Below are positions 12,737-41,286 of a stretch of 41,286 bases of DNA, in pieces (the stretch's first letter is position 1; the number at the start of each line of letters is the position of its first letter). The notes beneath the pieces were generated by a model. The model did not search any database and was not told the origin of the DNA. It worked only from the letters and a program-made list of their open reading frames with translations. This DNA is from a virus (taxonomy: Duplodnaviria; Heunggongvirae; Uroviricota; Caudoviricetes): IMG/VR virus record IMGVR_UViG_2851933302_000002, positions 1 to 41,286 of that record. One strand, 5' to 3'. The position numbers and the translations under genes were made by a program.

Positions 12737-13102
12737 ATGACTGAACGCATAGAATTTGTTTTGCCTTACCCGCCAACGGTGAACACTTACTGGCGACGTC
12801 GTGGCAGCACATATTTTGTATCAAAAGTCGGTGAGCGTTATCGCCGTGATGTGGCGCTTATTGTTCGCCAGCAGCAACTGAAATTAAACCTGTCCGGAAG
12901 GCCGGCAATAGAAATTATTGCAGAGCCACCGGATAAGCGCCGTCGTGACCTGGACAATATCCTGAAGGCACCACTGGATGTACTGACGCATGCGGGGCTG
13001 CTCATAGACGACGAGCAGTTTGATGAAATTAATATTGTGCGCGGTCAGCTTGTTCCTGGTGGGCGGTTGGGGATAAAAATCACAGAACTGGAGTACGCAT
13101 GA
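12737..13102 (+). CDS. rusA: Holliday junction resolvase RusA
   Basis: 121-aa ORF with the RusA-like N-terminal motif (LPYPPTVNTYW) and an acidic catalytic region. Classical position upstream of Q. Confidence 0.85.
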   Translation: MTERIEFVLPYPPTVNTYWRRRGSTYFVSKVGERYRRDVALIVRQQQLKLNLSGRPAIEIIAEPPDKRRRDLDNILKAPLDVLTHAGLLIDDEQFDEINIVRGQLVPGGRLGIKITELEYA

Positions 13103-13788
13103 ATAACCAGTATTTACAGTTTGTTCGTGAGCAACTCATGATTGCCACCGCCGATTTGAGTGGATCAACAAAAGGGCAGCTTGAGGCCTGGCAGGAGAAT
13201 GCCATGTTTGATACAGGGCGTTACAGGCGTAAAAAAATCCGGTACCGCGATGAAGTGACTGGAAAAATGATAACGCGGGATAATCCACCAATCCCGGGAA
13301 AGCAATCGCTGGCGAAGGGGGTGTCAATTCCTCTCGTCAGTCCGGTTGAGTTTTCGACATCATCGTGGCGGCGGGCTGTTCTGTCTCTTGAAGAACATCA
13401 TAAAGCCTGGTTGTTGTGGTGTTACAGCGGGAGTATTTGTTGGGAATATCAGATCGCGATAACGCAGTGGGTGTGGAATGAATTTAAAACCCGGTACGGC
13501 ACCAGAAAAATTGCAGGGAAAACGCAGGAGCGCGTGAAGAAGTTGATCTGGCTGGCGGCACAGGATGTCAGAGGATGGATTACCGGGTGTGAGGTCTACC
13601 AGAGACAGGAGCTTGCCAGACTGTGTGGAGTTAAGCCTGATAACTGGAGCCATAATTATGCGAACTACTGGCGTGAGATGTGCGATATTTTTAAGAGTCT
13701 CGATAGAGAATCTGTGATTTGCACCGTGAAAATAAGAGCGCAACAAAAAGCGACTTTTTCACGACGAGATATTGCAAAAGTCAATTAA
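13099..13788 (+). CDS. Late-gene antiterminator Q-like protein (phage 82/Qin QuuQ type)
   Basis: 229-aa ORF overlapping the rusA stop (ATGA). Size and position fit the large Q family; followed by a promoter/terminator-like intergenic region. No motif-level confirmation. Confidence 0.55.
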   Translation: MNNQYLQFVREQLMIATADLSGSTKGQLEAWQENAMFDTGRYRRKKIRYRDEVTGKMITRDNPPIPGKQSLAKGVSIPLVSPVEFSTSSWRRAVLSLEEHHKAWLLWCYSGSICWEYQIAITQWVWNEFKTRYGTRKIAGKTQERVKKLIWLAAQDVRGWITGCEVYQRQELARLCGVKPDNWSHNYANYWREMCDIFKSLDRESVICTVKIRAQQKATFSRRDIAKVN

Positions 13789-13857
13789 ATAGCGTACGTT
13801 TCGTATAAATCTGATATTTTGCCGATTTTGTACGCGATGGCAAAGTAAGAAAAAAAA

Positions 13858-13880
13858 CTGCCGTCAGGCGGTTTTTTTTT
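13858..13880 (+). terminator. Candidate tR'-like terminator downstream of Q
   Basis: Short 5-bp hairpin (CTGCC-GTCA-GGCGG, one G-U pair) followed by T9 and preceded by A7. Confidence 0.5.
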
Positions 13881-14002
13881 ATGCCCAAAATCGCGTCAGT
13901 ACAGTAAACACGCTGGTGGTTGCGAATACGGGTCTTTCAGCTTGCTGGCTTTTTCGACAAGAGTTATTGGTATGTCACGTTAACCGGAAAAAGGAAAAAG
14001 AC

Positions 14003-14200
14003 ATGCTAAAACAGCAGGATATGACAGAAACCGCCAGAGTGGTGTTTAATGAATTAAGCGTTACCGAACCGGCGACAGTCGGGGAGATAGCGCAGAATAC
14101 TTACCTTTCACGCGAACGCTGCCAGTTAATACTGACTCAGCTGGTTATGGCGGGTCTGGCAGACTATCAGTTCGGTTGTTACAGACGCCTTCCGCAGTGA
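14003..14200 (+). CDS. Small winged-helix-like protein upstream of the DNA methyltransferase (possible controller)
   Basis: 65-aa ORF from the ATG at 14003 with SD AAGGA. HTH-like segment TVGEIAQNTYLSRERCQLILTQL. Confidence 0.4.
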   Translation: MLKQQDMTETARVVFNELSVTEPATVGEIAQNTYLSRERCQLILTQLVMAGLADYQFGCYRRLPQ

Positions 14201-14350
14201 AGGCTTTTTTATTTGTGGTAAATGGGCGGCTGGTGGGTGTTAGGGGCACTTACCAGCCATCTGCTCATGCGTTGGGTTCACAAGCAAACCTCAGGCCCAC
14301 TGCTTTGCGCAAAAGCAGAATGAGCCTATCAGAGACAGGCTTAATGATCC

Positions 14351-15400
14351 ATGCTTAATACTGTAAAAATATCCAGTTGTGAGTTAATCAACGCCGACTG
14401 CCTGGAATTTATCCGGTCGTTACCCGAAAATTCTGTTGACCTGATAGTCACGGACCCGCCGTACTTTAAAGTGAAGCCTGAGGGCTGGGATAACCAGTGG
14501 AAGGGCGACGATGATTACCTGAAGTGGCTGGACCAGTGTCTGGCGCAGTTCTGGCGGGTGCTGAAACCTGTCGGAAGTCTTTACCTGTTCTGTGGTCATC
14601 GCCTGGCATCTGATATCGAAATCATGATGCGTGAACGCTTCAGTGTGCTGAACCATATTATCTGGGCGAAGCCGTCCGGACGCTGGAACGGATGCAACAA
14701 GGAAAGCCTGCGGGCGTATTTCCCCGCCACAGAGCGCATTCTGTTCGCGGAACATTATCAGGGGCCGTATCGTCCGAAAGATGCCGGGTATGCGGCGAAG
14801 GGCAGTGCACTGAAACAGCATGTGATGGCCCCGCTGATTTCTTACTTTCGTGATGCGCGCGCGGCCCTGGGGATAACGGCAAAACAGATTGCAGATGTCA
14901 CAGGAAAGAAAAACATGGTGTCGCACTGGTTCAGTGCCAGTCAGTGGCAGCTACCGAACGAAAGCGATTATCTGAAATTACAGTCGCTGTTTGCCCGGGT
15001 GGCAGAAGAGAAACATCAGCGCGGTGAACTGGAAAAGCCCCACCACCAGCTGGTGGATACGTATACGTCACTGAACCGGCAGTATGTGGAGCTGCAGAGT
15101 GAATATAAGCATCTGCGGCGGTATTTTGGTGTGACGGCGCAGGTGCCGTACACGGATGTATGGACACATAAACCGGTGCAGTTCTATCCCGGGAAACATC
15201 CGTGCGAAAAACCGGCAGAAATGCTGCAGCAGATAATCAGCGCAAGCAGTCGTCCGGGTGACCTGGTTGCAGATTTTTTTATGGGCTCAGGTTCAACGGT
15301 AAAAGTGGCACTGGCGCTCGGGCGTCGTGCGATTGGCGTTGAACTGGAGACCGGACGTTTTGAGCAGACAGTCAGGGAAGTTCAGGATTTAATCGTTTGA
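14351..15400 (+). CDS. DNA methyltransferase (beta-class N6-adenine/N4-cytosine type, orphan)
   Basis: 349-aa ORF with motif IV DPPY (TDPPYF) preceding motif I FxGSG (FFMGSGST), i.e. permuted beta-class order. No adjacent restriction endonuclease gene. Confidence 0.85.
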   Translation: MLNTVKISSCELINADCLEFIRSLPENSVDLIVTDPPYFKVKPEGWDNQWKGDDDYLKWLDQCLAQFWRVLKPVGSLYLFCGHRLASDIEIMMRERFSVLNHIIWAKPSGRWNGCNKESLRAYFPATERILFAEHYQGPYRPKDAGYAAKGSALKQHVMAPLISYFRDARAALGITAKQIADVTGKKNMVSHWFSASQWQLPNESDYLKLQSLFARVAEEKHQRGELEKPHHQLVDTYTSLNRQYVELQSEYKHLRRYFGVTAQVPYTDVWTHKPVQFYPGKHPCEKPAEMLQQIISASSRPGDLVADFFMGSGSTVKVALALGRRAIGVELETGRFEQTVREVQDLIV

Positions 15401-15449
15401 AACGGATGAGATTGCAGAATTAATTACGCACCATTATTATTCTGCTCCC

Positions 15450-15525
15450 GGCCCTTTAGCTCAGTGGTGAGAGCGAGCGACTCATAATCGCCAGGTCGCT
15501 GGTTCAAATCCAGCAAGGGCCACCA
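15450..15525 (+). tRNA. ileZ: tRNA with anticodon CAT (Ile2/Met type; ileZ-like)
   Basis: 76-nt cloverleaf. Acceptor stem GGCCCTT/AAGGGCC, anticodon CAT at 15483-15485, T-loop GGTTCAAATCC, 3' CCA. Confidence 0.85.
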
Positions 15526-15532
15526 TCACATA

Positions 15533-15609
15533 CCGCCATTAGCTCATCAGGAAAGAGCGCCAGCTTTCGAAGCTGGTTGCGCGGAGTTCGGGTCCCCGAA
15601 GGCGGTCCA
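15533..15609 (+). tRNA. argN: tRNA-Arg (anticodon TCG; argN-like)
   Basis: 77-nt candidate. Anticodon stem CCAGC/GCTGG with loop TTTCGAA (anticodon TCG), 3' CCA. One mismatch in the acceptor stem and one in the T-stem. Confidence 0.7.
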
Positions 15610-15622
15610 TTATCTGTATCCT

Positions 15623-15699
15623 GCGTTGTTAGCTCAGCCGGACAGAGCAATTGCCTTCTAAGCAATCGGTCACTGGTTCGAATCCAGTACAACGCGCCA
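15623..15699 (+). tRNA. argO: tRNA-Arg (anticodon TCT; argO-like)
   Basis: 77-nt cloverleaf. Acceptor GCGTTGT/ACAACGC, anticodon loop CTTCTAA (TCT), T-loop GGTTCGAATCC, 3' CCA. Confidence 0.85.
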
Positions 15700-15714
15700 C
15701 ACTTATTTTCCCTG

Positions 15715-15737
15715 GCTCGCTTTTGCGGGCTTTTTTT
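15715..15737 (+). terminator. Terminator-like hairpin after the tRNA cluster
   Basis: GCTCGC-TTTT-GCGGGC hairpin followed by T7. Confidence 0.55.
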
Positions 15738-15743
15738 AAATGT

Positions 15744-15960
15744 CTCACAATTCAGGCGGTTGACTGTTGTCTGGTTTGCGGGGAGTTTGTTAAAAGAAAC
15801 TGGCATGGTGAATCCCCCTGTGCGGAGGGGCAATCAGCGAGTAGGTATATGGGATAATCGCGGATTCAGGTGCTGGTACTGAATTCACCGGGAGGCACCC
15901 GGCACCATGCAATGGCACATAGCGCCACTCTCCAGCCCCTCTCCGGAGGGGCTTTTCTGT
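15744..15960 (+). repeat. Structured repeat unit, copy A (promoter-like TTGACT plus hairpins plus terminator)
   Basis: Shares blocks with copy B: CTCACAATTCAG..GTTGAC, GCATGGTGAATCCCCCTG.GCGGAGGGGC, CACCGGGAGGCACCCGGCACCATG, and the terminator hairpin AGCCCCTCTCCGGAGGGGCT followed by T-run. Confidence 0.6.
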
Positions 15961-16147
15961 GCCGGATACATCACAGTTTCTGGAACCTTAGGTACTACAG
16001 TATCAGTCAGGGTGCTATATTTTCAGATGTGATGAAAGCCTGTCAGCAGGCAGGGCGTATCGGAAATGACCCAGTAGAGAAAACGTTGACTCAGATACCG
16101 GTGCTGAGTTACCGGGAAACCGGCATCACATGACCGCTATCCTTCCA

Positions 16148-16174
16148 GGCCCATCCGCTCCGGTGGGCCTTTTT
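16148..16174 (+). terminator. Rho-independent terminator between repeat copies
   Basis: GGCCCA-(10-nt loop)-TGGGCC hairpin followed by TTTTT. Confidence 0.6.
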
Positions 16175-16211
16175 ACTGCAGAAAACAGGTTCCCCGTTAA
16201 ATGCTATGTTG

Positions 16212-16446
16212 CTCACAATTCAGTAAGTTGACAGTTGCCTGTCAGACTGGGCATTTGTTAAAAAAATTTCGCATGGTGAATCCCCCTGAGCGGAGGGGCG
16301 ACTGGTGACGGTATAATCTCTGATTATCAAAACGAGAATGACGCGGGTTTAGTGGCACCGGGCTGAACTCACCGGGAGGCACCCGGCACCATGTGCATGA
16401 TGATACAGATACGCGGCTTTAGCCCCTCTCCGGAGGGGCTTTCTTA
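16212..16446 (+). repeat. Structured repeat unit, copy B
   Basis: Second tandem copy of the copy A element. Contains TTGACA, a perfect TATAAT at about 16309-16314, the same GC hairpins and the AGCCCCTCTCCGGAGGGGCT terminator hairpin. Confidence 0.6.
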
Positions 16447-16451
16447 TGGAC

Positions 16452-16480
16452 AAAAAAAGCCCGCGCTGGGAGACGCGGGC
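16452..16480 (-). terminator. Minus-strand rho-independent terminator
   Basis: GCCCGCG-CTGGGAGA-CGCGGGC hairpin preceded by A7 on the plus strand, i.e. a T-run after the hairpin on the minus strand. Confidence 0.5.
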
Positions 16481-16673
16481 GGCAAGGAATAAACAATAAA
16501 ACGTGAAGTAATATTTCAGCTGGCGAATAATACCCCATAGTAATCACTCTGCGCAACTGCGCGGTCTTTTTCGAATTGCGGGCTGTAGTCTCCCTTCTGC
16601 CATTGTCCTGTAACTTCCGGACTTCAGCCTGCTCCTTATCTGACTCACAACATTATCCCGCCCGGGAGGATTC

Positions 16674-18527
16674 ATGGCATTTAAACACTATGACGTGGTC
16701 AGGGCGGCATCGCCGTCAGACCTTGCGAAACGACTGACACAAAAACTGAAGGAGGGCTGGCAGCCGTTTGGTAGTCCGGTGGCCATAACCCCTTATACCC
16801 TGATGCAGGCGATTGCAGCAGAAGGTGATGTGGTCGTCAGTGGTGCAACTGAGCCGGAGTGGTACTACGTCATCGTACTGGCCGGGCAATCCAATGCCAT
16901 GGCTTACGGTGAAGGGCTTCCGCTTCCGGATTCATACGATGCGCCCCATCCGCGCATTAAGCAACTGGCCCGTCGTAACACAGTGACTCCCGGTGGTGAA
17001 GTATGCGTATTTAACGACATCATTCCTGCTGACCATTGTCTGCATGATGTTCAGGATATGAGTACGATTAACCATCCCCGGGCTGACCTGAGCAAAGGGC
17101 AGTACGGCTGTGTCGGACAGGGCTTACATATTGCCAAAAAACTGCTTCCGTATATCCCTAATAATGCGGGGATCCTGCTGGTACCATGCTGTCGTGGTGG
17201 TTCGGCATTCACCCAGGGCACGGAGGGGACATTCAGCGAGTCCACGGGAGCCAGTCAGGATTCGGCTCGCTGGGGAGTGGGTAAGCCGTTATATCAGGAT
17301 CTGCTTTTCCGCACGAAGGCAGCATTGCAGAAAAACCCGAAAAACGTTTTGCTGGCGATATGCTGGATGCAGGGGGAATTCGATATGACGAATGCCAGTT
17401 ACGCCCAGCAGCCAGCAGCATTTCTTGCAATGGTACAGCAGTTCCGTGCTGACCTTGCCGGGCTGGCGGCGCAGTGTCACGGTGGAAGTCCGGCATCAGT
17501 CCCCTGGATTTGTGGCGACACGACATACGCGTGGAAACAAGAACACGGTACGCAATATGAAGTGGTATATGGTGCATATAAAGGTAAAGAATCCCAGCAG
17601 ATTTATTTTGTTCCCTTTATGACCGATGGTAGCGGAGTTAATACACCGACAAACAACCCGTCAGAAGATCCTGATATTGCCGGGTCTGGTTATTACGGTT
17701 CGGCATCCCGAACGAACAAAAACTGGGTATCATCAAATCGCCCGACGCATTTCAGCTCATGGGCGCGTCGTGGCATTATTCCCGATCGTATGGCAACTGC
17801 TATTCTGAACGTAGCCGGTCGCACCTTAGCCTTCATTAGTGGTAAGGCACCGGAAATCAAACCCTCGCCCGGCGGCGACACGCCATCGGGGCCGTCTGAA
17901 GATGCATCCATACGCACAATCTCCCTGTTGCCGACAGCCGGAGACGCTGCTGCGCAGGGCTGGAGCATTAAGAATGGCGGAATTCAGTTGTCAGATGGTG
18001 TATTTAAGATCACCAAGCAGAGCAATAAAGCCTGGTCCCTGACGCGCCCGGTGGATGACGCAGTCTCCCTGCTGACACGGGGTGGCAGACTGAGCTGTAA
18101 GTTTCGACTGTCAGGCGCACTGACCAACAACCAGTTCGGTCTGGGAATTTATCTGTATACCGATGTAGCGTTACCTGACGTCGTGGCGATGACCGGGACT
18201 GGTAACCCGTTCCTGATGTCGTTCTTCACCCAGACCACAGACGGCAAACTGAATCTGATGCATCACAAGAAAGCAGGAAACACAAAGTTGGGCGAGTTCG
18301 GGAATTACAGTAACGACTGGCAGACGCTGGAGCTGGTGTTCACCGCCGGCAGTGCCACGGTTACTCCGAAACTGAATGGAGTGGCTGGCCCGGCATTCCA
18401 GGTCATAAAAGACAGTCTGACACTGGGGCTGAATGCGCTGACGCTGACGGATATTACCAAAAATGCAGCGTATGGCGTTGAGATAGAAAGTCTGGTGCTG
18501 GAGATAAATGCACCGGCATCATCATAA
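16674..18527 (+). CDS. nanS-p: Prophage sialate O-acetylesterase (NanS-p-like; SASA esterase domain)
   Basis: 617-aa ORF with SD GGGAGGA. N-terminal module followed by an SGNH/SASA-like esterase motif (VLAGQSNAMAYG). Sits between the tRNAs and the lysis cassette, as in Stx-type lambdoid phages. Confidence 0.75.
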   Translation: MAFKHYDVVRAASPSDLAKRLTQKLKEGWQPFGSPVAITPYTLMQAIAAEGDVVVSGATEPEWYYVIVLAGQSNAMAYGEGLPLPDSYDAPHPRIKQLARRNTVTPGGEVCVFNDIIPADHCLHDVQDMSTINHPRADLSKGQYGCVGQGLHIAKKLLPYIPNNAGILLVPCCRGGSAFTQGTEGTFSESTGASQDSARWGVGKPLYQDLLFRTKAALQKNPKNVLLAICWMQGEFDMTNASYAQQPAAFLAMVQQFRADLAGLAAQCHGGSPASVPWICGDTTYAWKQEHGTQYEVVYGAYKGKESQQIYFVPFMTDGSGVNTPTNNPSEDPDIAGSGYYGSASRTNKNWVSSNRPTHFSSWARRGIIPDRMATAILNVAGRTLAFISGKAPEIKPSPGGDTPSGPSEDASIRTISLLPTAGDAAAQGWSIKNGGIQLSDGVFKITKQSNKAWSLTRPVDDAVSLLTRGGRLSCKFRLSGALTNNQFGLGIYLYTDVALPDVVAMTGTGNPFLMSFFTQTTDGKLNLMHHKKAGNTKLGEFGNYSNDWQTLELVFTAGSATVTPKLNGVAGPAFQVIKDSLTLGLNALTLTDITKNAAYGVEIESLVLEINAPASS

Positions 18528-32220: not shown

Positions 32221-32660
32221 ACTTTGCCCTCAGACTGGCGCGTGAGATGGGGAGACCCGACTGGCGCGCCATGCTTGCCGGGATGACATCCACCGAATAT
32301 GCCGACTGGCACCGTTTTTACCGCACGCATTATTTTCAGGATACCCAGCTGGATATGCATTTTTCCGGGCTGACGTACGCTGTACTCAGCCTGTTTTTTT
32401 GCGATCCGGATATGCATCCCTCTGATTTCAGTCTGCTTGTCCCCCGGCATGAGGAAGAGCAGGTGGAGAGGCCGGATGAGGACAAAATGCTGATGCAGAA
32501 AGCGGCAGGACTTGCCGGAGGCGTCCGGTTCGGTGGGGACGGAGGGCGCGATATTTTATCGTCTGCGGATGTGGCGGATGTCATGGTGGATGATGCCGCA
32601 TTAATGATGGCTTCAGCGGGGATTCCGGGAGGTGTGAGATATGTCCCAGCCGGTTGGTGA
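31789..32660 (+). CDS. GT: Tail assembly chaperone gpGT (product of programmed -1 ribosomal frameshift at GGGAAAG)
   Basis: Slippery sequence G GGA AAG at 32196-32202 in the G frame. A -1 slip moves into the T frame (…[26 protein letters not shown]…), which runs to 32660. Same arrangement as lambda G/T. Confidence 0.8.
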
Positions 32661-35600
32661 TCTTGTTATTGACCTTAGTCTGGATGCTGTCCGTTTCGAT
32701 GAGCAGATGAGCCGGGTAAGGCGTCATTTTTCAGGTCTGGATACCGACGCCAGAAAAACCGCCAGTGCTGTTGAACAGGGCCTGAGCCGCCAGGCGCTGG
32801 CTGCACAAAAAGCCGGGATTTCCGTCGGGCAGTATAAAGCGGCCATGCGAACCCTGCCCGCACAGTTTACGGATATCGCCACGCAGCTTGCCGGTGGTCA
32901 GAATCCCTGGCTGATCCTGCTGCAACAGGGCGGTCAGGTGAAGGACTCCTTCGGCGGGATGATCCCCATGTTCAGGGGGCTTGCCGGTGCGATCACCCTG
33001 CCGATGGTCGGGGTCACCTCGCTGGCGGTGGCGACAGGTGCGCTGGTGTACGCCTGGTACCAGGGAGATTCCACGCTTTCAGCGTTTAATAAAACCCTGG
33101 TTCTTTCCGGTAATCAGTCCGGACTGACTGCCGATCGCATGCTGACGCTCTCCAGAGCCGGACAGGCCGCAGGGCTGACGTTTAACCAGGCGAGTGAGTC
33201 ACTGGCAGCCATGGTGAATGCCGGTGTGCGTGGTGGTGAACAGTTTGATGCCATCAACCAGAGTGTCGCGCGTTTTGCTTCTGCATCCGGTGTGGAGGTG
33301 GACAAGGTTGCAGAGGCTTTCGGAAAACTGACCACTGACCCGACGTCGGGGCTGATTGCGATGGCGAAGCAGTTCCATAACGTGACGGCGGAGCAGATTG
33401 CGTATGTTGCTCAGTTGCAGCGTTCCGGCGATGAAACCGGGGCATTGCAGGCGGCGAACGAGGCCGCAACGAAAGGGTTTGATGACCAGACCCGCCGCCT
33501 GAAAGAGAACATGGGCACGCTGGAGACCTGGGCAGACAGGACAGCGCGGGCATTCAAATCCATGTGGGATGCGGTGCTGGATATTGGTCGTCCTGATACC
33601 GCGCAGGAGATGCTGATTAAGGCAGAGGCTGCGTTTAAGAAAGCAGACGACATCTGGAATCTGCGCAAGGATGATTATTTTGTTAACGATGAAGCGCGGG
33701 CGCGTTACTGGGATGATCGTGAAAAGGCCCGTCTTGCGCTTGAAGCCGCCCGAAAGAAGGCTGAGCAGCAGACTCAACAGGACAAAAATGCGCAGCAGCA
33801 GAGCGATACCGAAGCGTCACGGCTGAAATATACCGAAGAGGCGCAGAAGGCTTACGAACGGCTGCAGACGCCGCTGGAGAAATATACCGCCCGTCAGGAA
33901 GAACTGAACAAGGCACTGAAAGACGGGAAAATCCTGCAGGCGGATTACAACACGCTGATGGCGGCGGCGAAAAAGGATTATGAAGCGACGCTGAAAAAGC
34001 CGAAACAGTCCGGCGTGAAGGTGTCTGCGGGCGATCGTCAGGAAGACAGTGCTCATGCTGCCCTGCTGACGCTTCAGGCAGAACTCCGGACGCTGGAGAA
34101 GCATGCCGGAGCGAATGAGAAAATCAGCCAGCAGCGCCGGGATTTGTGGAAGGCAGAAAGTCAGTTCGCGGTACTGGAGGAGGCGGCACAACGTCGCCAG
34201 CTGTCCGCACAGGAGAAATCCCTGCTGGCGCATAAAGATGAGACGCTGGAGTACAAACGCCAGCTGGCTGCACTTGGCGACAAGGTTACGTATCAGGAGC
34301 GCCTGAACGCGCTGGCGCAGCAGGCGGATAAATTCGCACAGCAGCAACGGGCAAAACGGGCCGCCATTGATGCAAAAAACCGGGGGCTGACTGACCGGCA
34401 GGCAGCGCGGGAAGCCACGGAACAGCGCCTGAAGGAACAGTATGGCGATAATCCTCTGGCGCTGAATAACGTCATGTCAGAGCAGAAAAAGACCTGGGCG
34501 GCTGAAGACCAGCTTCGCGGGAGCTGGATGGCAGGCCTGAAGTCCGGCTGGAGTGAGTGGGAAGAGAGCGCCACGGACAGTATGTCGCAGGTAAAAAGTG
34601 CAGCCACGCAGACCTTTGATGGTATTGCACAGAATATGGCGGCGATGCTGACCGGCAGTGAGCAGAACTGGCGCAGCTTCACCCGCTCCGTGCTGTCCAT
34701 GATGACAGAAATTCTGCTTAAGCAGGCAATGGTGGGGATTGTCGGGAGTATCGGCAGCGCTATTGGCGGGGCTGTTGGTGGCGGCGCATCCGCGTCAGGC
34801 GGTACAGCCATTCAGGCAGCTGCGGCGAAATTCCATTTTGCGACCGGAGGATTTACGGGAACCGGCGGCAAATATGAGCCAGCGGGGATTGTTCACCGTG
34901 GTGAATTTGTCTTCACGAAGGAGGCGACCAGCCGGATTGGTGTCGGCAACCTGTATCGTCTGATGCGCGGGTATGCGGAAGGTGGTTATGTCGGCGGTGC
35001 CGGAAGTCCGGCGCAGATGCGGCGGGCGGAAGGTATCCGGTTTGAGCAGAACAACAGCGTGGTGATTCAGAACGACGGTATCAACGGACAGGCCGGGCCG
35101 CAGCTGATGAAAGCGGTGTATGAGATGGCCCGTAAAGGTGCGCAGGATGAGATCCAGTCCGTCACCGACGGCGTGAAGGTAAAAGTGAGCCGTGTTCCTG
35201 ACGGCGTTGCTGAATACAGCGTGTGGGGGCTGAAGCTGCCGACGCTGCGCCAGCGCCTGTTCCGCTGCGTGAGTATCCGTGAGAACGACAACGGCACGTA
35301 TGCCATCACCGCCGTGCAGCATGTACCGGAAAAAGAGGCCATCGTGGATAACGGGGCGCACTTTGACGGCGACCAGAGCGGCACGGTGAACGGGGTCACA
35401 CCGCCAGCAGTGCAGCATCTGACTGCCGAAGTCACCGCAGACAGCGGGGAATACCAGGTGCTGGCGCGCTGGGATACGCCGAAGGTGGTGAAGGGTGTGA
35501 GCTTTATGCTTCGCCTGACCGTGGCAGCGGATGACGGCAGTGAGCGGCTGGTCAGCACGGCCCGGACGACGGAAACCACATACCGCTTCACGCAACTGGC

Positions 35601-36945
35601 GCTGGGAAACTACAGGCTGACAGTCCGGGCGGCAAATGCCTGGGGGCAGCAGGGCGATCCGGCATCGGTATCGTTCCGGATTGCCGCCCCGGCAGCGCCG
35701 TCGCGGATTGAGCTGACGCCGGGCTATTTTCAGATAACTGCCACGCCGCATCTTGCGGTTTATGATCCGACGGTACAGTTTGAGTTCTGGTTCTCGGAAA
35801 CGCGGATTACCGATATCAGGCAGGTTGAAACCACAGCCCGCTACCTTGGCACGGGGCTGTACTGGATAGCCGCCAGTATCAATATCAAACCGGGCCATGA
35901 TTATTACTTTTATATCCGCAGTGTGAACACCGTTGGCAAATCGGCATTCGTGGAGGCCGTCGGTCGGGCGAGCGATGATGCGGAAGGTTACCTGGATTTT
36001 TTCAAAGGCAAGATAACCGAATCCCATCTCGGTAAAGAGCTGCTGAAAAAAGTCGACCTGACGGAGGATAACGCCAGCAGACTGGATGAGTTTTCGAAAG
36101 AGTGGAAGGACGCTAACGATAAATGGAATGCTATGTGGGGCGTCAAAATTGAGCAGACCAAAGACGGCAAACATTATGTCGCGGGTATTGGCCTCAGCAT
36201 GGAGGACACGGAGGAAGGCAAGCTGAGCCAGTTTCTGGTTGCCGCCAATCGTATCGCGTTTATTGACCCGGCAAACGGGAATGAAACGCCGATGTTTGTG
36301 GCGCAGGGCAACCAGATATTCATGAACGACGTGTTCCTGAAACGCCTGACGGCTCCCACCATTACCAGCGGTGGAAATCCGCCGGCATTTTCCCTGACAC
36401 CGGACGGAAAGCTGACCGCTAAAAATGCGGATATCAGCGGTAATGTGAATGCAAATTCAGGGACGCTCAACAACGTCACGATTAACGAGAACTGTCGGGT
36501 TCTGGGAAAACTGTCCGCGAACCAGATTGAAGGCGATCTCGTTAAAACAGTGGGCAAAGCTTTCCCCCGGGACTCCCGTGCACCGGAGCGGTGGCCATCA
36601 GGGACCATTACCGTCAGGGTTTATGACGATCAGCCGTTTGACCGGCAAATTGTTATTCCGGCGGTGGCTTTCAGCGGTGCCAGACATGAGCGGGAGAATA
36701 GCGATACTTATTCGTCATGCCGCCTGATAGTGAAGAAAAACGGGGCTGAAATTTATAACCGAACGGCTCTGGATAATACGCTGATATACACGGGTGTTAT
36801 TGATATGCCTGCAGGCAGTGGCGTAATGACACTGGAGTTTTCTGTATCAGCATGGTGGGTAAATGGTTGGTATCCCACAGCAAGTATCAGCGATTTGCTG
36901 GTTGTTGTGATGAAGAAAGCCACTGCAGGCATCACGATTAGCTGA
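32641..36945 (+). CDS. In-frame fusion of tape measure protein (gpH, N-terminal about 840 aa) to the C-terminal half of central tail fibre/host specificity protein (gpJ); deletion derivative
   Basis: 1434-aa ORF. The first about 840 aa track recalled lambda gpH nearly residue by residue up to …[10 protein letters not shown]. The sequence then continues …[23 protein letters not shown]… through Fn3-like and C-terminal receptor-binding regions that match recalled lambda gpJ. No M, L, K or I genes are present anywhere in the window. Confidence 0.85.
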
Positions 36946-37012: not shown

Positions 37013-37612
37013 ATGCGTAAATTATGTGCTGTTATTCTGTCCGCAGTAGTCTGGCTGGTTGCCGCTGGTACGCCAGCGAGTGCAGCAGAGCATCAGTCCA
37101 CACTAAGCTCCGGGTATATTCAGTCCCATACTGATATGCCCGGCAACGATGACCTGAAGGGCATTAACGTGAAATACCGTTATGAATTTACGGACACGCT
37201 GGGGCTGGTGACGTCATTCAGTTATGCTGGAGACAAGAATCGCCAGATTACCCGTTACAGTGATACCCGCTGGCATGAAGATTCAGTGCGTAACCGCTGG
37301 TTCAGCATGATGGCGGGGCCATCTGTGCGCGTGAATGAGTGGTTCAGCGCATATGCGATGGCGGGTGTGGCTTACAGCCGTGTTTCGACTTTCTCCGGGG
37401 ATTATCTCCGCGTAACTGACAACAAGGGGAAAACGCACGATGTGCTGACCGCAAGTGATGATGGTCGCCACAGTAACACGTCTCTGGCGTGGGGGGCTGG
37501 CGTGCAGTTTAACCCGACCGAATCCGTGGCCATTGATATTGCTTATGAAGGCTCCGGCAGTGGTGACTGGCGCACTGACGGTTTTATCGTGGGTGTCGGT
37601 TATAAATTCTGA
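37013..37612 (+). CDS. lom: Outer membrane protein Lom (Ail/PagC/OmpX family)
   Basis: 199-aa ORF with a signal peptide and a beta-barrel pattern ending in ...GVGYKF. Position after J as in lambda. Confidence 0.9.
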
Positions 37613-37628: not shown

Positions 37629-37655
37629 AGCCCGCATATTCTGGCGGGCTTTTTT
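37629..37655 (+). terminator. Rho-independent terminator after lom
   Basis: AGCCCGC-ATATTCTG-GCGGGCT hairpin followed by TTTTT. Confidence 0.8.
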
Positions 37656-37666
37656 GTGGGGTGGAT

Positions 37667-39496
37667 ATGGCAGCAGTAAAAATCTCAGGTGTGCTGAAAG
37701 ATGGTGCGGGAAAACCAATACAGAACTGCACTATTCAACTGAAGGCAAAACGTAACAGCACAACGGTTGTGGTGAACACGGTGGCCTCAGAAAATCCGGA
37801 TGAAGCTGGACGTTACAGCATGGATGTTGAGTATGGTCAGTACAGCGTCACCCTGCTGGTTGAAGGTTTTCCGCCTTCACATGCCGGGACCATTACCGTT
37901 TATGAAGGTTCCAGACCAGGTACGCTGAATGATTTTCTGACTGCCCCCGACGAAGGCGACCTGAAGCCAGATGTGGTGAAACGATTTGAAGATTTGACAA
38001 GTCAGGCGCGACGAAGTGCAGATGTGGCAATATCAGCGACAAAAAGGGCAGAAGCGTTACTGTCTGAAATGCAGGGAATAGCCGATAGTTTTCCCGGTTT
38101 GCGCTTTGAGAACTTTGACGACATCGTGAGTCGTTGCACTACTGCAATGTTAAAACTGGAACAACCCGAGGTTGTTGATACATCAATATCTTTAAAAATA
38201 AAAGAAAATATCGATTTTAATTATGTCGGTGCAGTTAACGGATATTGCGATATTTCTGAACCAGAAAAGTATAAAGTCGAAATGTATGCTTATACAACCG
38301 GAGAGTATTTTAACGGCGACGCTAATTTGAATAGTGACGGAACTTTCTATTTCAGACGTTGCTGGACGGGAGCAAAACAGTTTCGTCTTATTCGGATTGA
38401 GGATAATGCGTGGATCACAACGCTGGAGTTTCCACTGCTCATTCGTAGCTACTGGATGCCGGAGGACGCAGACCCCGAAGTGATCAGGGTGATGAAAGAT
38501 CGGTGTTACACGTATGACCAGGCGCTGGCAGCACTGGCGTTGATGGTTCAGCGACATGAGGCTGTAGAAAGATACGTTGCGGGCTTGTGTGCGCTTGTTG
38601 ATGAAAACGGTGGAGTAAAGTTTTTTGTTAACAGGCTGTCTGCCATGTCACCGCGTACCTATTACCGCTTGGGCAATGCGGCATGGGTTTATTATGCTCT
38701 TGCTTTCTATCTGGAGAAGTATCCGGACGGTACTCAGACTGCGCGGGTCAGAGAAAAGCTATTGGCAGGCATTGCCTGGCTGGATACTTTTCTGGTGAGC
38801 ACACCAGGCGACCTGCGTGAAGGCCTGTATAAAGGGGGGCAGGGGCGTTATGTGGACGGCAATTTTGATGAAACTTTCGTCGCCGAATGGTGCGCACTGG
38901 AGCATAACGTTGATATCTGGTTTTTGTTTGAACTGATGGGACGGCTGGGATTTGACGGTTTCAGTGAGCGGGCTGACAGGCTGGCAAAGAGTATCATCAG
39001 AGGTCTGTGGGTGGAAGATGAAGGCCGATTTCGACAGGGGGTTCATTCAACCCACTATGACAACGCAGCGGCGCTGGATCAGTCTTCCTGGGGCGGATTG
39101 TTTGTTGCCAATATTGATGCTGAGAAAGCGGCTAAGTGCCGAAAATATATGGGGCGTTTTTTATTTGGTACGAGGGAAACCACGGGTTACACACCGTACC
39201 ACCCTGATTATGGTTATAGTGGTCACAGCCGTGGCGTGTGGGTGGAAGGAACGGCAGGTGTGGCACTTTTTGAGCGCAAGCTGGGTAATGAGCTGAATGC
39301 GGTGAATCTTGTGGCAGCAATGGCTCCACTTTTTAATGAGTACGGTTATCGTGATTCTTGCGATAACCTGGCATACGATGTGCTGCCTTCCTGGCCATCA
39401 ACAACAAACACTGCCTGGATCATTCTGGCTGTAAAGCCAGATAATTTCTGGTTAGTGGATTCGCCAGAAATGGATGTAGGGACAATCCGCTATTGA
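37667..39496 (+). CDS. stf: Side tail fibre-like protein: Stf N-terminal tail-attachment domain fused to an unrelated C-terminal domain, possibly enzymatic
   Basis: The N-terminal about 100 aa (MAAVKISGVLKDGAGKPIQNCTIQLKAKRNSTTVVVNTV…GFPPSHAGTITVYEGS) match the recalled lambda Stf N-terminus. The remaining about 500 aa lack the fibrous repeats of lambda Stf and are rich in Trp/Tyr helical segments (YYRLGNAAWVYYALAFYLEKY, WVEGTAGVALFE), suggestive of an alpha/alpha-toroid fold. An AT-rich stretch (38160-38420) marks the junction. Confidence 0.7.
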   Translation: MAAVKISGVLKDGAGKPIQNCTIQLKAKRNSTTVVVNTVASENPDEAGRYSMDVEYGQYSVTLLVEGFPPSHAGTITVYEGSRPGTLNDFLTAPDEGDLKPDVVKRFEDLTSQARRSADVAISATKRAEALLSEMQGIADSFPGLRFENFDDIVSRCTTAMLKLEQPEVVDTSISLKIKENIDFNYVGAVNGYCDISEPEKYKVEMYAYTTGEYFNGDANLNSDGTFYFRRCWTGAKQFRLIRIEDNAWITTLEFPLLIRSYWMPEDADPEVIRVMKDRCYTYDQALAALALMVQRHEAVERYVAGLCALVDENGGVKFFVNRLSAMSPRTYYRLGNAAWVYYALAFYLEKYPDGTQTARVREKLLAGIAWLDTFLVSTPGDLREGLYKGGQGRYVDGNFDETFVAEWCALEHNVDIWFLFELMGRLGFDGFSERADRLAKSIIRGLWVEDEGRFRQGVHSTHYDNAAALDQSSWGGLFVANIDAEKAAKCRKYMGRFLFGTRETTGYTPYHPDYGYSGHSRGVWVEGTAGVALFERKLGNELNAVNLVAAMAPLFNEYGYRDSCDNLAYDVLPSWPSTTNTAWIILAVKPDNFWLVDSPEMDVGTIRY

Positions 39497-39823
39497 CTCT
39501 CTTGTTGTTTGATAAACCGACAAAAGGATAAATATCAGCGATCCATTCTGTGCTGTTTGATTGTGCGCTCCCCGCTCAGAATTGCGCGTCAATTAGCCTA
39601 TAAAAAATCGCGAAGATACAATACGTACTTCATTGCGCTTGAACACCCCAGGCATAATATCGCTGGATTGAAATGTTCGGACATGGCAAGCGAATGAATA
39701 TGCCGTGGTGGGGCGGTTTTGATCCGCGCGCGTGGGATGTGGCAAGCCTGATGGATTTTGCTGTGCCGGTGGTGGCGTGTCTGCTGGTCTGGCTGTTGGT
39801 TAATCGTGGGTGAAAAAAGGTGA

Positions 39824-39952
39824 GCTGTATATGCAACGGAGGAAGAAACCTCGTTGCTGGAAGCCTGGAAAAAGTATCGGGTGTTGCTGAACCGTGTTGA
39901 TACATCAACTGCCCCTGATATTGAGTGGCCTGTGAACCCTGTCAGGGAGTAA
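39824..39952 (+). pseudogene. Tail fibre assembly protein (Tfa) 3' remnant
   Basis: Frame without a start codon encodes …[38 protein letters not shown], the conserved Tfa C-terminus. Duplicated as the 3' end of the intact-looking gene at 40732..41001. Confidence 0.6.
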
Positions 39953-40006
39953 TCATTGGGATTATGCCGCAGCACGTCTTAAGCAAGAACGTGCTGCGGT
40001 TGGATG

Positions 40007-40675
40007 CTATTTTTTCCCTGAAGCGGAAAACATTACTACAGTACCTTGAACCTTGGTTTTAACATTCTCGAAATGCTCTGAGAGTATATGTGTTAAGCCT
40101 TCTTCGGAATCTTTTGTGTTTGAAAAGATGCCTTTCTGATTGTAAATGCGCATCAGTTTTTGACCGAAGCTATTGTGCACAACGCCGTCACCAAGAATTG
40201 TGGCTCCGTATAGAGTTCCATCGTCAGTTAAGGCCTGCGCCGCATTGCGTATTACACAGCTTTTTGTAGATATATTTCCAGGCAGGCAGTGAAGAAGGTA
40301 AAACATGGAAATGGAATCAAATTGACCATGTAACGCCGCGGGATAAGGATCAAAAACATCATGGCTAATTTTATGTTTAATTTTTGATTCCCCAGCCCTT
40401 GTCGATGCCGCGTTCAGGCTAGCTTCGTTCAAATCCATTAAAGATATCAGACTACTCTCAGGTACGTGAGTAAGGTAAAACCCAGTTCCAACACCAATAT
40501 CCAGATGGTTGTTACCTAAATGTTCCAGAAAGTGTGGAAGAAGGTGTTCCTTTGTAGGACATCCCCATGCAAGCCGATTTGATACTCCCAAAACCCACCA
40601 GTCATAAAGCTTTAGGGTAAGTGGTGTGTAAATTTTAGCCCCATCATCTGTGTTTTTTTTCATTAATTTCACCAT
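40007..40675 (-). CDS. Class I SAM-dependent methyltransferase (small-molecule/RNA type), cargo gene
   Basis: 222-aa ORF on the opposite strand to the tail genes. Motif I HLDIGVGTGFY with a Rossmann-fold pattern. Flanked by direct repeats of the tfa 3' end. Confidence 0.7.
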   Translation of the reverse strand: MVKLMKKNTDDGAKIYTPLTLKLYDWWVLGVSNRLAWGCPTKEHLLPHFLEHLGNNHLDIGVGTGFYLTHVPESSLISLMDLNEASLNAASTRAGESKIKHKISHDVFDPYPAALHGQFDSISMFYLLHCLPGNISTKSCVIRNAAQALTDDGTLYGATILGDGVVHNSFGQKLMRIYNQKGIFSNTKDSEEGLTHILSEHFENVKTKVQGTVVMFSASGKK

Positions 40676-40731: not shown

Positions 40732-41001
40732 ATGCTGCCGCAGCATAGCGATATTGAAATAGCCTGGTATGCTTCGATACAGCAGGAGCCGAATGGCTGG
40801 AAGACCGTCACCACACAGTTCTACATCCAGGAATTCAGTGAGTATATTGCGCCACTGCAGGATGCTGTAGATCTGGAAATCGCAACGGAGGAAGAAAGAT
40901 CGTTGCTGGAGGCATGGAATAAATATCGGGTATTGTTGAATCGTGTTGATACATCAACTGCACCTGATATTGAGTGGCCTGCAAATCCTGTCAGGGAGTA
41001 A
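40732..41001 (+). CDS. Tail fibre assembly protein (Tfa-like), short form
   Basis: 89-aa ORF whose C-terminus ([32 protein letters not shown]) is the conserved Tfa C-terminal motif. May be N-terminally truncated relative to canonical Tfa of about 190 aa. Confidence 0.55.
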
Positions 41002-41004
41002 TCA

Positions 41005-41286
41005 TTGGGATTATGCCGCAGACACGTCGTATGCAGGAACGTGCTGCGGTTAGTTTGTGAGCTTTCGATAGTGGTTGTTATTTTTGCCCTTATTTGTTCC
41101 GGAGGCCCTGGTTCAATGGTCCGTCTGCCCCCTGTGGTGATGTCAGCAAAATCAGCCACTGCGCGAACCACAATAGCCCGGGAAGATGCTGAAGATCACC
41201 AGGTAAAGCTGTCAGCGCAGAAACTGGAAGAACTGCTCGCATCAATGGTTAAGGATGAGGTTGATCGCAATGATGGGATTTATTGA
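41005..41286 (+). CDS. Hypothetical protein at window edge
   Basis: 93-aa ORF ending at the last base of the window. The likely start is an internal Met (MVRLPP…). Function unknown. Confidence 0.3.
   Translation: MGLCRRHVVCRNVLRLVCELSIVVVIFALICSGGPGSMVRLPPVVMSAKSATARTTIAREDAEDHQVKLSAQKLEELLASMVKDEVDRNDGIY

What the first reader, a model, noticed from the sequence alone, without database searches (positions are those of the whole stretch)
37667..39496. Side tail fibre with lambda Stf attachment domain fused to a non-fibrous, possibly enzymatic C-terminal module
Only the first about 100 aa resemble lambda Stf. The rest is a globular-looking, Trp/Tyr-rich, helical sequence, preceded by an AT-rich segment that suggests mosaic acquisition, and no full-length tfa gene follows directly. 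It may be a receptor-binding or glycan-degrading domain (for example capsule or O-antigen hydrolase or epimerase-like) that changes host range.
Basis: inference. Interest (0 to 1): 0.6.

Follow-up and report, generated by a model that had tools for sequence, protein, structure and literature searches.

The report
Lambda side fibre carrying glycosidase-like head
This prophage gene joins the part of phage lambda's side tail fibre that clips onto the tail to a compact domain predicted to fold like sugar-cutting enzymes, so it probably binds or cuts a bacterial surface sugar instead of acting as a long fibre, although no such activity has been measured.

Summary
An intact gene at 37667-39496 (+) follows J and lom in a lambdoid prophage. 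Residue numbers here count from the in-frame GTG at 37661.

- **Attachment domain.** Residues 5-95 are 88% identical to the lambda Stf collar domain (PDB 9e7m).
- **Neck.** A lambda-like helical neck runs to about residue 142.
- **Exchangeable module.** From residue 148 the protein is a beta-sandwich (the AT-rich part, GC 0.39) plus a 12-helix (alpha/alpha)6 barrel. The AlphaFold2 model has pLDDT 93.
- **No sequence family.** Nothing matches in Pfam, NCBIfam or PDB sequences.
- **Conserved residues.** D286, E414, D418, D473 and E529, with Y285, H415 and several Trp, are kept in 95-99% of 127 distant homologues. All lie at the starts of the even-numbered barrel helices.
- **Modularity.** The same module sits behind at least five other kinds of phage tail N-terminus and also occurs alone.
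- **No chaperone.** No intact tfa gene follows it.

Best reading: a chaperone-independent, enzyme-tipped side fibre, probably a glycoside hydrolase. The substrate is unknown and activity is unproven. This copy lies in a tail-defective prophage (H-J fusion).

The parts
37667..39496 (+). Complete gene for the Stf-like protein (609 aa from the ATG at 37667; an in-frame GTG lies at 37661, and the residue numbers in this report count from that GTG, so subtract 2 for the ATG start).
   Evidence: ORF list; RBS-like GGGGTGG and ATG; same start annotated in phiSTEC1575-Stx2k; 100% identical in E. coli B1172 and MS 21-1.
37673..37945 (+). StfN collar/attachment domain (aa 5-95), a beta-sandwich that in Ur-lambda forms a 12-copy collar at the gpV/gpM junction.
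   Evidence: PF08400 E 6.6e-62; 88% identity to PDB 9e7m_Ta; role of StfN taken from PMC12617516.
37946..38101 (+). Helical neck/linker (aa 96-147; predicted helix 103-142), still weakly lambda-like to about aa 129. Presumed trimeric coiled coil.
   Evidence: Secondary structure of the model; BLASTP to lambda orf-401 ends at aa 127-129. Trimer state is inferred from lambda Stf.
38102..38440 (+). Beta-sandwich domain (aa 148-260), the first domain of the exchangeable module and the AT-rich segment (GC 0.392).
   Evidence: Strands 149-256 at pLDDT about 96-98; similarity to proteins with other N-termini begins sharply at aa 148; GC values.
38468..39460 (+). (alpha/alpha)6 six-hairpin barrel (aa 270-600, 12 helices), the putative catalytic domain.
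38513..38518 (+). Y285-D286 (YTYDQA motif) at the start of barrel helix 2. D286 is a candidate general acid, by position like MmpH D47/D50.
   Evidence: Y285 98% and D286 95% conserved in 127 homologues below 45% identity; MmpH catalytic residues from PMC9883506. The equivalence is inferred, not superposed.
38900..38914 (+). E414-H415-N416-V-D418 (STEHNxD motif) at the start of barrel helix 6. Candidate catalytic or sugar-binding carboxylates.
   Evidence: E414 98%, H415 97%, D418 98% conserved; invariant in A1.
39077..39091 (+). D473...W477 (LDxxSWG motif) at the start of barrel helix 8.
   Evidence: D473 98%, W477 98%, L472 100% conserved.
39245..39250 (+). E529-G530 (VWxEGT motif) at the start of barrel helix 10. 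Candidate general base, by position like MmpH E262 and the GH15 base.
   Evidence: E529 99% conserved; least variable block among enterobacterial alleles; MmpH E262 from PMC9883506. Inferred equivalence.
39833..40001 (+). 3' remnant of a tail-fibre assembly (tfa) gene, the likely distal scar of the replacement that brought in the module. PGAP annotates 39833-39952 in the equivalent MS 21-1 locus; the repeat extends to 40001.
   Evidence: PGAP annotation 'tail fiber assembly protein, missing N-terminus' at the equivalent position in MS 21-1; 90% repeat with 40882-41051.
40732..41001 (+). Second tfa 3' fragment (89-aa ORF; only profile positions 75-130 of 131 are matched).
   Evidence: PF02413 E 6e-25, partial match; annotated as a fragment in MS 21-1.

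Best explanation
The gene encodes a chimeric side tail fibre.

**Attachment (by homology).** Its first ~95 residues are the lambda-type StfN domain. [quoted passage not shown] A short lambda-like helical neck follows.

**Head (by structure prediction).** The usual long fibrous shaft and Tfa-dependent tip have been replaced from residue 148 by a self-folding two-domain head: a beta-sandwich plus an (alpha/alpha)6 six-hairpin barrel.

**Function (inferred).** I infer that the barrel is an active carbohydrate-processing enzyme, most probably a glycoside hydrolase of the GH15/GH-L structural type. In that reading, near-invariant carboxylates (E529 as base; E414, D418 or D286 as acid) and a ring of Trp/Tyr line the funnel formed by the starts of the six inner helices. 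The virion would then carry up to twelve such heads. These would bind and cleave a surface glycan of E. coli to speed adsorption or to unmask the gpJ receptor, as depolymerase tailspikes do.

**Substrate.** It is unknown. Near-identical alleles occur in hosts of different O-serogroups, and the predicted active-site blocks are the least variable parts. Both hint at a conserved glycan rather than a serotype-specific one.

**This copy.** In this window the prophage cannot build a tail tip, because an in-frame H-J fusion has removed M, L, K and I. The copy is therefore stored cargo that could be rescued by recombination, not a working part of a phage.
For: **Attachment domain**
- PF08400 covers aa 5-130 (E 6.6e-62).
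- 88% identity to the Ur-lambda StfN structure 9e7m.
- 72% identity to lambda orf-401 over aa 1-127.
- The gene lies directly after J and lom, as in lambda.
- The collar of 12 copies and the four trimeric fibres come from PMC12617516.

**Fold**
- The AF2 model has mean pLDDT 93 and pTM 0.81, with 12 helices between aa 272 and 591.
- Foldseek alignments to GH78 rhamnosidases span 565-574 columns, nearly the full length of the query, although at rmsd 12-15 A.

**Active-site-like conservation**
- E529 is conserved in 99% of 127 homologues below 45% identity; E414, D418, D473, Y285 and W477 in 98%; H415 in 97%; D286 in 95% (invariant columns).
- Every conserved cluster sits at the N-terminus of an even-numbered helix of the barrel.
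- Among enterobacterial alleles the least variable blocks are aa 281-300 and 521-540. The most variable are the outer helices at 361-380 and 541-560.

**Modularity and virion association**
- The same module follows PF08400, PF12571, PF18668 and PF03406 N-termini or a T7-like nozzle, and in other proteins precedes DUF7941 (PF25613) or gp5 spike repeats.
- It is the last minor tail gene in Microbacterium phage RubyRalph.
- It is a second fibre gene without its own Tfa in P2-like prophages.
- It directly follows a GpJ-like gene in another siphophage prophage.
- A stand-alone copy lies among non-structural genes in jumbo phage ph0011. That fits an enzyme better than an adhesin.

**No chaperone needed**
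- phiSTEC1575-Stx2k has no tfa after the gene.
- Only tfa fragments remain in this window.

**Feasibility**
- Engineered lambda Stf N-termini carrying K1F and K5 phage tail-fibre heads supported delivery into K1- and K5-capsulated strains (PMC11338833).

**Host spread**
- Alleles at least 99.4% identical occur in O169:H41 and O27:H7 strains.
Against: - No enzymatic activity has been measured for any member of this family. None was found in the literature library searched.
- There is no sequence-level link to any CAZy-type family: no Pfam, NCBIfam or PDB sequence hit, even with profiles at E <= 10.
- I had no model coordinates. That the conserved residues line one pocket, and which residue matches which in GH15 or MmpH, is inferred from helix positions, not from a superposition.
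- Trimer formation by the globular head is assumed, not modelled.
- A lysogen's serotype is weak evidence about a phage's target.
- This copy sits in a tail-defective prophage, so it does not act in a virion made by this element alone.
Confidence: 0.6

Rival explanations
1. The six-hairpin head is a non-catalytic, lectin-like receptor-binding domain. It is an enzyme fold recruited only to bind a surface glycan (or a protein) reversibly, as lambda Stf binds OmpC.
For: Lambda Stf itself only binds its receptor (PMC12617516). There is no sequence membership in any glycosidase family. The conserved aromatic and acidic residues could serve binding alone.
Against: Five carboxylates plus Tyr and His are kept in 95-99% of homologues. 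Those homologues come from phages of E. coli, Microbacterium, Thermus and Coprococcus, whose surface glycans must differ, and pure binding sites normally diverge with the ligand. A free-standing copy lies outside the tail module in a jumbo phage. Fusions to PhoD phosphatases suggest a catalytic partner.
Confidence: 0.2
2. The head is an enzyme with different chemistry: a polysaccharide lyase, a transglycosylase, or an AGE-type epimerase/isomerase that modifies rather than cuts the receptor glycan.
Confidence: 0.12
3. The gene is a decaying relic with no function, as NCBI's pipeline implies when it annotates identical copies as a pseudogene 'missing C-terminus'.
For: PGAP marks only the first 417 nt as a partial tail-fibre pseudogene in MS 21-1 and TW10690. 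The surrounding prophage is defective (H-J fusion, tfa fragments, frameshifted downstream ORF). Truncated copies exist in O6:H16 ETEC strains.
Against: The ORF is intact over 609 codons. It is 99.7% identical to the gene of the complete Stx2k phage genome phiSTEC1575-Stx2k. It folds with pLDDT 93 and keeps every family-invariant residue. The pseudogene label arises because no annotation model covers the C-terminal module.
Confidence: 0.05

Closest known systems
Bacteriophage lambda (Ur-lambda) side tail fibre Stf with its chaperone Tfa
   Same: Same gene position after J and lom. Homologous N-terminal collar domain (88% identity to 9e7m; PF08400) and the first part of the helical neck.
   Different: Lambda Stf continues as a long trimeric fibre with a Tfa-dependent tip that binds OmpC (PMC12617516). 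Here everything after about aa 147 is a globular beta-sandwich plus (alpha/alpha)6 barrel, and no intact tfa follows.
GH15-type / clan GH-L six-hairpin glycosidases: dextran dextrinase 9ju0, glucodextranase 1ulv, bacterial glucoamylase 1lf6, and the MmpH endo-alpha-1,4-mannanase 7qsj
   Different: Only 8-15% identity and no detectable sequence relationship, even profile against sequence. Catalytic equivalence was not verified in 3D. Those enzymes are soluble metabolic proteins, not virion parts.
Depolymerase-bearing phage tailspikes and fibres, including the rare 'alpha/alpha toroid' class seen in computational surveys (DepoScope; Klebsiella prophage survey)
   Same: A conserved virion adaptor plus an exchangeable glycan-directed head. 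The alpha/alpha-toroid fold is a recognised though rare class: 11 of 984 predicted phage depolymerases, and 29 of the predicted depolymerase domains (under 1%) in Klebsiella prophages (PMC11326577, PMC12491483).
   Different: Most characterised depolymerases are trimeric right-handed beta-helices or beta-propellers. This family has no Pfam or InterPro-type hit, so surveys seeded on such hits would probably miss it. No member has a known substrate.
Engineered lambda-K1F / lambda-K5 / lambda-KL106 chimeric Stf proteins
   Same: A lambda Stf N-terminus carrying a foreign tail-fibre head from K1- and K5-specific phages; those heads are enzymes (endosialidase, K5 lyase) from my own knowledge. The chimeras assemble on lambda particles and redirect them (PMC11338833).
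   Different: Those are laboratory constructs with beta-propeller or beta-helix enzymes. This is a natural chimera with a six-hairpin head.
AGE superfamily (N-acylglucosamine / cellobiose 2-epimerases, YihS isomerase)
   Different: Only one conserved His in this family. AGE enzymes act on free sugars in the cytoplasm. No sequence match.

Membership tests
Lambda-type side tail fibre (Stf) | N-terminal StfN collar domain homologous to lambda Stf residues 1-94 | tested here: met
   PF08400 E 6.6e-62; 88% identity to 9e7m_Ta; 72% identity to lambda orf-401 over 127 aa.
Lambda-type side tail fibre (Stf) | Gene located directly downstream of J and lom in a lambdoid tail operon | tested here: met
   J C-terminal domains end at 36945, lom is at 37013-37612, and the gene starts at 37667. 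The order is the same in lambda.
Lambda-type side tail fibre (Stf) | Long fibrous shaft and C-terminal tip whose folding needs the Tfa chaperone encoded just downstream | tested here: not met
   No fibre repeats (no PF03406). The model is globular after aa 148. Only tfa fragments lie downstream, and phiSTEC1575-Stx2k has none.
Lambda-type side tail fibre (Stf) | Assembly as trimers on the virion | not testable with these tools
   Needs multimer modelling, virion proteomics or cryo-EM. Inferred only from StfN homology.
Six-hairpin glycoside hydrolases (GH15 / clan GH-L type) | (alpha/alpha)6 barrel fold | tested here: met
   [not shown]
Six-hairpin glycoside hydrolases (GH15 / clan GH-L type) | Sequence membership in a curated GH family | tested here: not met
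   No Pfam hit at E <= 10. No NCBIfam hit. No PDB sequence hit with two profiles. One of 71 homologues has a weak PF22422 (GH63-like) hit at E 0.0055, which is not significant after 71 scans. CAZy/dbCAN was not available.
Six-hairpin glycoside hydrolases (GH15 / clan GH-L type) | Two catalytic carboxylates (general acid and base) in the funnel at the barrel opening | tested here: inconclusive
   D286, E414, D418, D473 and E529 are 95-99% conserved and sit at the N-termini of helices 2, 6, 8 and 10. Without coordinates there is no superposition on GH15 or MmpH catalytic residues.
Six-hairpin glycoside hydrolases (GH15 / clan GH-L type) | Demonstrated glycosidic bond cleavage | not testable with these tools
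   Needs biochemistry.
AGE superfamily epimerases/isomerases | Pair of conserved catalytic histidines in the barrel (from my own knowledge of the family) | tested here: inconclusive
   Only H415 is conserved above 90%. No second conserved His appears among the 45 most conserved columns. Spatial equivalence was not checked.
Phage polysaccharide depolymerase tailspikes | Conserved virion-adaptor N-terminus plus exchangeable glycan-directed C-terminal module | tested here: met
   The module starts at aa 134-148 behind at least five different kinds of N-terminus. The N- and C-terminal parts have different similarity histories.
Phage polysaccharide depolymerase tailspikes | Right-handed parallel beta-helix (the majority fold) | tested here: not met
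   The model is a beta-sandwich plus alpha/alpha barrel. It belongs to the rare alpha/alpha-toroid fold class.

The most novel reading that the evidence does not exclude
The module is the founding, still uncharacterised member of a new glycoside-hydrolase family: a six-hairpin fold that is a sequence orphan, with about 490 clusters at 50% identity. Phages of Enterobacteria, Actinobacteria, Thermus and Firmicutes would mount it on fibres, tailspike adaptors, nozzles and puncturing spikes. In E. coli lambdoid, Stx-type and ETEC prophages it would cut a conserved, non-serotype-specific envelope glycan, such as the alpha-linked LPS outer core or enterobacterial common antigen. It would then act as a broad 'receptor-unmasking' enzyme rather than a serotype-specific depolymerase.
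Probability: 0.2. Interest if true: 0.75.

Novelty: new variant of a known kind. Interest (0 to 1): 0.5.

Why it matters
**Enzyme discovery.** Enzyme-tipped receptor-binding proteins decide phage host range and are sought as anti-capsule and anti-biofilm reagents. Almost all characterised ones are beta-helices or propellers. This locus gives a natural, compact, apparently chaperone-independent six-hairpin head on the best-understood siphophage attachment domain. The head belongs to a widespread family that no Pfam, NCBIfam or PDB sequence search detected here. If it is active, it would define a new carbohydrate-active enzyme family with a directly testable set of catalytic residues.

**Phage engineering.** It would be a ready-made module for engineering lambda-based particles.

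**Phage spread.** It could help explain how Stx-type and ETEC-associated lambdoid phages reach their hosts.

**Annotation.** Pipelines currently call intact copies pseudogenes because the head has no model.

Tried and rejected
**Searches that found nothing**
- Pfam at E <= 10 and NCBIfam at E <= 1 on the C-terminal 478 aa: no hit.
- phmmer and two profile searches (A1 full length, A4 barrel only) against all PDB sequences: only StfN and three spurious WD40 hits, or nothing.
- Pfam scan of 71 homologues, looking for a bridging family: only tail adaptor domains and one insignificant GH63-like hit.
- Source names of ten distant cluster representatives: all 'hypothetical', with one automatic 'lanthionine synthetase-like' label.
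- BFVD fold search: the best hit is the uncharacterised viral protein F9VHN7 (no name in the tables); nothing characterised.
- Literature searches for toroid or six-hairpin phage tail proteins and for phiSTEC1575-Stx2k: only computational surveys, and no functional work on this family.

**Not possible**

**Ideas rejected**
- That the AT-rich segment is a junction or linker: it codes for the well-folded beta-sandwich.
- That the small downstream ORF is a dedicated chaperone travelling with the module: it is absent downstream of the module in P2-like and other siphophage contexts and is frameshifted here.
- That the window carries stx: the stx site between the tRNAs and the nanS-p-like gene has no ORF longer than 101 aa and no stx-sized gene.
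Full report
**1. What is at the coordinates**

One uninterrupted ORF runs from 37661 (GTG) to 39496 on the + strand. The ATG at 37667 is the finding's start. It is preceded by GGGGTGG and follows a terminator-like hairpin (37629-37650) that closes lom. The near-identical gene of phage phiSTEC1575-Stx2k is annotated from the same ATG. Residue numbers below count from the GTG (611 aa); subtract 2 for the ATG start.

Upstream lie the C-terminal domains of J and an Ail/Lom gene at 37013-37612, in the lambda order. The window as a whole is a lambdoid prophage running from integrase to tail fibres. Its late region is like that of Stx phages: Q, a DNA methylase, three tRNAs and a nanS-p-like esterase. 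It carries no stx gene.

**2. N-terminal part**

- PF08400 matches aa 5-130 (E 6.6e-62).
- Residues 5-95 are 88% identical to chain Ta of the in situ Ur-lambda tail tip structure 9e7m.
- BLASTP against lambda orf-401 gives 72% identity over the first 127 residues and nothing afterwards.
- At the DNA level the high identity to lambda ends near nt 37940.

According to the Ur-lambda paper (PMC12617516), residues 1-94 of Stf form a six-stranded sheet plus a helix. Twelve copies build a collar at the gpV/gpM junction, and four trimeric fibres emerge from it.

**3. The rest of the protein**

No Pfam or NCBIfam model matches residues 134-611. PHROGs only says 'tail fiber protein'.

A full-database HMMER search found 492 clusters (at 50% identity) with E <= 1e-3. 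With 70 homologues as the alignment (A1), AlphaFold2 gave a confident model: mean pLDDT 93, pTM 0.81. Its layout is:

| Residues | Element |
|---|---|
| 5-80 | beta-sandwich (StfN) |
| 103-142 | long helix |
| 149-256 | second beta-sandwich |
| 272-591 | twelve helices |

Fold searches gave these matches.

- **Foldseek against the PDB** returns (alpha/alpha)6 enzymes: D-mannose isomerase, dextran dextrinase, GH78 rhamnosidases, cellobiose 2-epimerases, GH100 invertase, GH63 and GH76.
- **Profile searches against PDB sequences** find nothing, even at E <= 10.

The resemblance is therefore at fold level only.

**4. Is it likely to be an enzyme?**

In 127 homologues that are under 45% identical to the query, the most conserved side chains are (invariant columns):

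| Residue(s) | Conserved in |
|---|---|
| E529 | 99% |
| E414, D418, D473, Y285, W477 | 98% |
| H415 | 97% |
| D286 | 95% |
| W527 | 94% |
| W450 | 93% |

Mapped on the predicted helices, each conserved cluster lies at the N-terminus of an even-numbered helix:

| Helix | Conserved residues |
|---|---|
| H2 | Y285/D286 |
| H4 | R336/G338 |
| H6 | E414-D418 |
| H8 | D473/W477 |
| H10 | E529/G530 |
| H12 | W586 |

From my own knowledge of GH15 glucoamylase structures, six-hairpin glycosidases form their active-site funnel from this end of the barrel.

MmpH uses D47/D50, in the loop between its first two helices, as the acid, and E262 as the base (PMC9883506). D286 and E529 occupy similar positions along the chain here. 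This equivalence is my inference. I had no coordinates to superpose.

Among enterobacterial alleles the least variable 20-residue blocks are 281-300 and 521-540. The most variable are the outer helices at 361-380 and 541-560. That is the pattern expected of a conserved catalytic centre with a drifting surface. It is not the pattern of a hypervariable binding face.

**5. Modularity**

BLASTP shows that similarity to proteins with other N-termini starts sharply at residue 148, or at 134 in P2-type proteins. The module follows several kinds of N-terminus:

- lambda StfN (PF08400);
- P2-type tail-collar (PF12571);
- CBA120-type Tail_spike_N (PF18668);
- Phage_fiber_2 repeats;
- a T7-like nozzle protein.

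It also lies upstream of DUF7941 or gp5 spike repeats, occurs in large proteins with PhoD phosphatase domains, and occurs alone.

Even among proteins whose heads are at least 80% identical to this one, the StfN part is only about 49% identical. The two halves therefore have separate histories.

Genomic contexts agree with a virion role:

- It is the last of four minor tail genes in Microbacterium phage RubyRalph.
- It is a second fibre gene after the ordinary fibre-plus-Tfa pair in P2-like prophages, with no Tfa of its own.
- It is the gene directly after a GpJ-like protein in another siphophage prophage.
- In jumbo phage ph0011 a 494-aa stand-alone copy (56% identical) lies among small non-structural genes. 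This argues for an activity that does not depend on being part of a fibre.

**6. The AT-rich segment and tfa**

GC is 0.392 over 38102-38440. That stretch is exactly the beta-sandwich, the first domain of the module. The barrel has GC 0.509 and the window 0.514. The AT-rich DNA is therefore part of the acquired module and does not precede it.

Downstream there is no intact tfa. The region holds:

- a small ORF that is frameshifted relative to phiSTEC1575-Stx2k;
- a tfa 3' fragment at 39833-40001 (annotated over 39833-39952);
- a SAM-dependent methyltransferase on the opposite strand;
- a second tfa 3' fragment.

phiSTEC1575-Stx2k has no tfa at all after the gene. A self-folding globular head would not need Tfa.

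**7. Distribution**

The head occurs in 42 of 5,426 complete E. coli genomes. Carriers named by serotype in the records include O169:H41, O27:H7 and O6:H16; the other carriers include isolates from sheep, pig, goat and buffalo. From my own knowledge, several of the named carrier strains are ETEC reference strains. The O6:H16 copies are truncated.

Alleles at least 99.4% identical occur in O169 and O27 backgrounds. This weakly suggests that the target is not O-antigen specific. A lysogen's serotype is only indirect evidence.

**8. State of this copy**

Compared with the 99.85%-identical region of strain MS 21-1, the window lacks about 4 kb. The loss fuses the tape-measure gene H in frame to the middle of J and removes M, L, K and I. 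The result is a 1,434-aa ORF carrying both TMP and J domains. This prophage cannot make a tail tip.

The stf-like gene here is therefore intact but stranded. It could still be rescued into other lambdoid phages by recombination through the conserved StfN 5' end. Temperate phages do acquire DNA from defective prophages (PMC3945230, listed).

**9. Comparison with what is known, and novelty**

- Enzyme-tipped receptor-binding proteins are a well-known kind.
- Engineered lambda Stf chimeras carrying K1F and K5 phage tail-fibre heads support delivery into capsulated strains (PMC11338833).
- Computational surveys list an 'alpha/alpha toroid' class as a rare depolymerase fold: 11 of 984 predicted phage depolymerases, and under 1% in Klebsiella prophages.
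- I found no characterised member of this particular family, no curated model for it and no paper on it.
- NCBI's pipeline labels intact copies as truncated pseudogenes. It calls an isolated C-terminal fragment 'glucosidase family protein'.

I therefore class it as a new variant of a known kind: a natural lambda-type side fibre whose head is a sequence-orphan six-hairpin, glycosidase-like module.

**10. Verdict**

- Catalysis, substrate and effect on host range remain untested.
- Confidence that the head is a catalytically active glycan-processing enzyme used in adsorption is about 0.6.
- Interest is 0.5.

Noticed in passing
window 32641-36945 (+): A single 1,434-aa ORF joins the tape-measure protein H (TMP_2 and Tape_meas_lam_C domains) in frame to the distal two Ig domains, tip-fibre domain and receptor-binding domain of J. 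Relative to strain MS 21-1, about 4 kb is missing (end of H, M, L, K, I and the first ~530 codons of J). The prophage is therefore tail-defective.
   Followed up: partly
window 40007-40675 (-), flanked by 39833-40001 and 40882-41051: A class I SAM-dependent methyltransferase gene on the opposite strand sits between two ~170-bp direct repeats (90% identical) that are 3' ends of tail-fibre assembly genes. It looks like a moron inserted by recombination between tfa copies. Its function is unknown.
   Followed up: partly
window 39509-39813 (+), especially 39673-39813: The small ORF just after the fibre gene is annotated as 99 aa in phiSTEC1575-Stx2k. Here a 1-bp deletion breaks it. A 46-aa ORF with a hydrophobic C-terminal stretch that looks like a transmembrane segment, judged by eye (MFGHGKRMNMPWWGGFDPRAWDVASLMDFAVPVVACLLVWLLVNRG), remains. 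It is not found next to the module in other phage types.
   Followed up: partly
window 13099-18527 (+): The late region is like that of Stx phages: antiterminator Q, a DNA methylase, tRNA-Met, tRNA-Arg and tRNA-Arg (15450-15699), then about 970 bp holding only short ORFs (none longer than 101 aa) and no stx-sized gene, where stx genes would sit. A 617-aa DUF1737/SASA esterase (nanS-p-like) follows. No stx genes are present.
   Followed up: partly
L001 8007-8423 (E. coli MS 21-1) and L010 1108-1524 / 2292-2936 (TW10690): NCBI PGAP annotates the 100%-identical intact gene in MS 21-1 as a pseudogene 'missing C-terminus' covering only the first 417 nt. In TW10690 a C-terminal fragment is named 'glucosidase family protein'. 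The module has no annotation model, so intact copies are mislabelled.
   Followed up: yes
L004 3926-5410 (Escherichia jumbo phage ph0011, Asteriusvirus): A stand-alone 494-aa copy of the module (56% identical, no tail adaptor) lies among small hypothetical genes, not among the tail genes.
   Followed up: partly
proteins P0130, P0131, P0148, P0160 (no window coordinates): Distant homologues of the module are fused to T4 gp5-type spike repeats, to a T7-like nozzle protein, and to PhoD-like phosphatase domains in proteins of 1,050-1,709 aa. Their source organisms are unknown.
   Followed up: partly
E. coli genomes listed: Record names give serotypes O169:H41, O27:H7 and O6:H16, and several carriers come from sheep, pig, goat and buffalo. 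From my own knowledge, several named carriers (TW10598, TW10690, B2C, 214-4, DS26-1, E275a) are ETEC reference strains. A lineage of O6:H16-type strains keeps only a truncated copy next to a portal gene.
   Followed up: no
window 1422-3893 (-): An 823-aa ORF next to the integrase has a C-terminal Rv2179c-like 3'-5' exoribonuclease domain and no recognised N-terminal domain.
   Followed up: no
[not shown]
   Followed up: no
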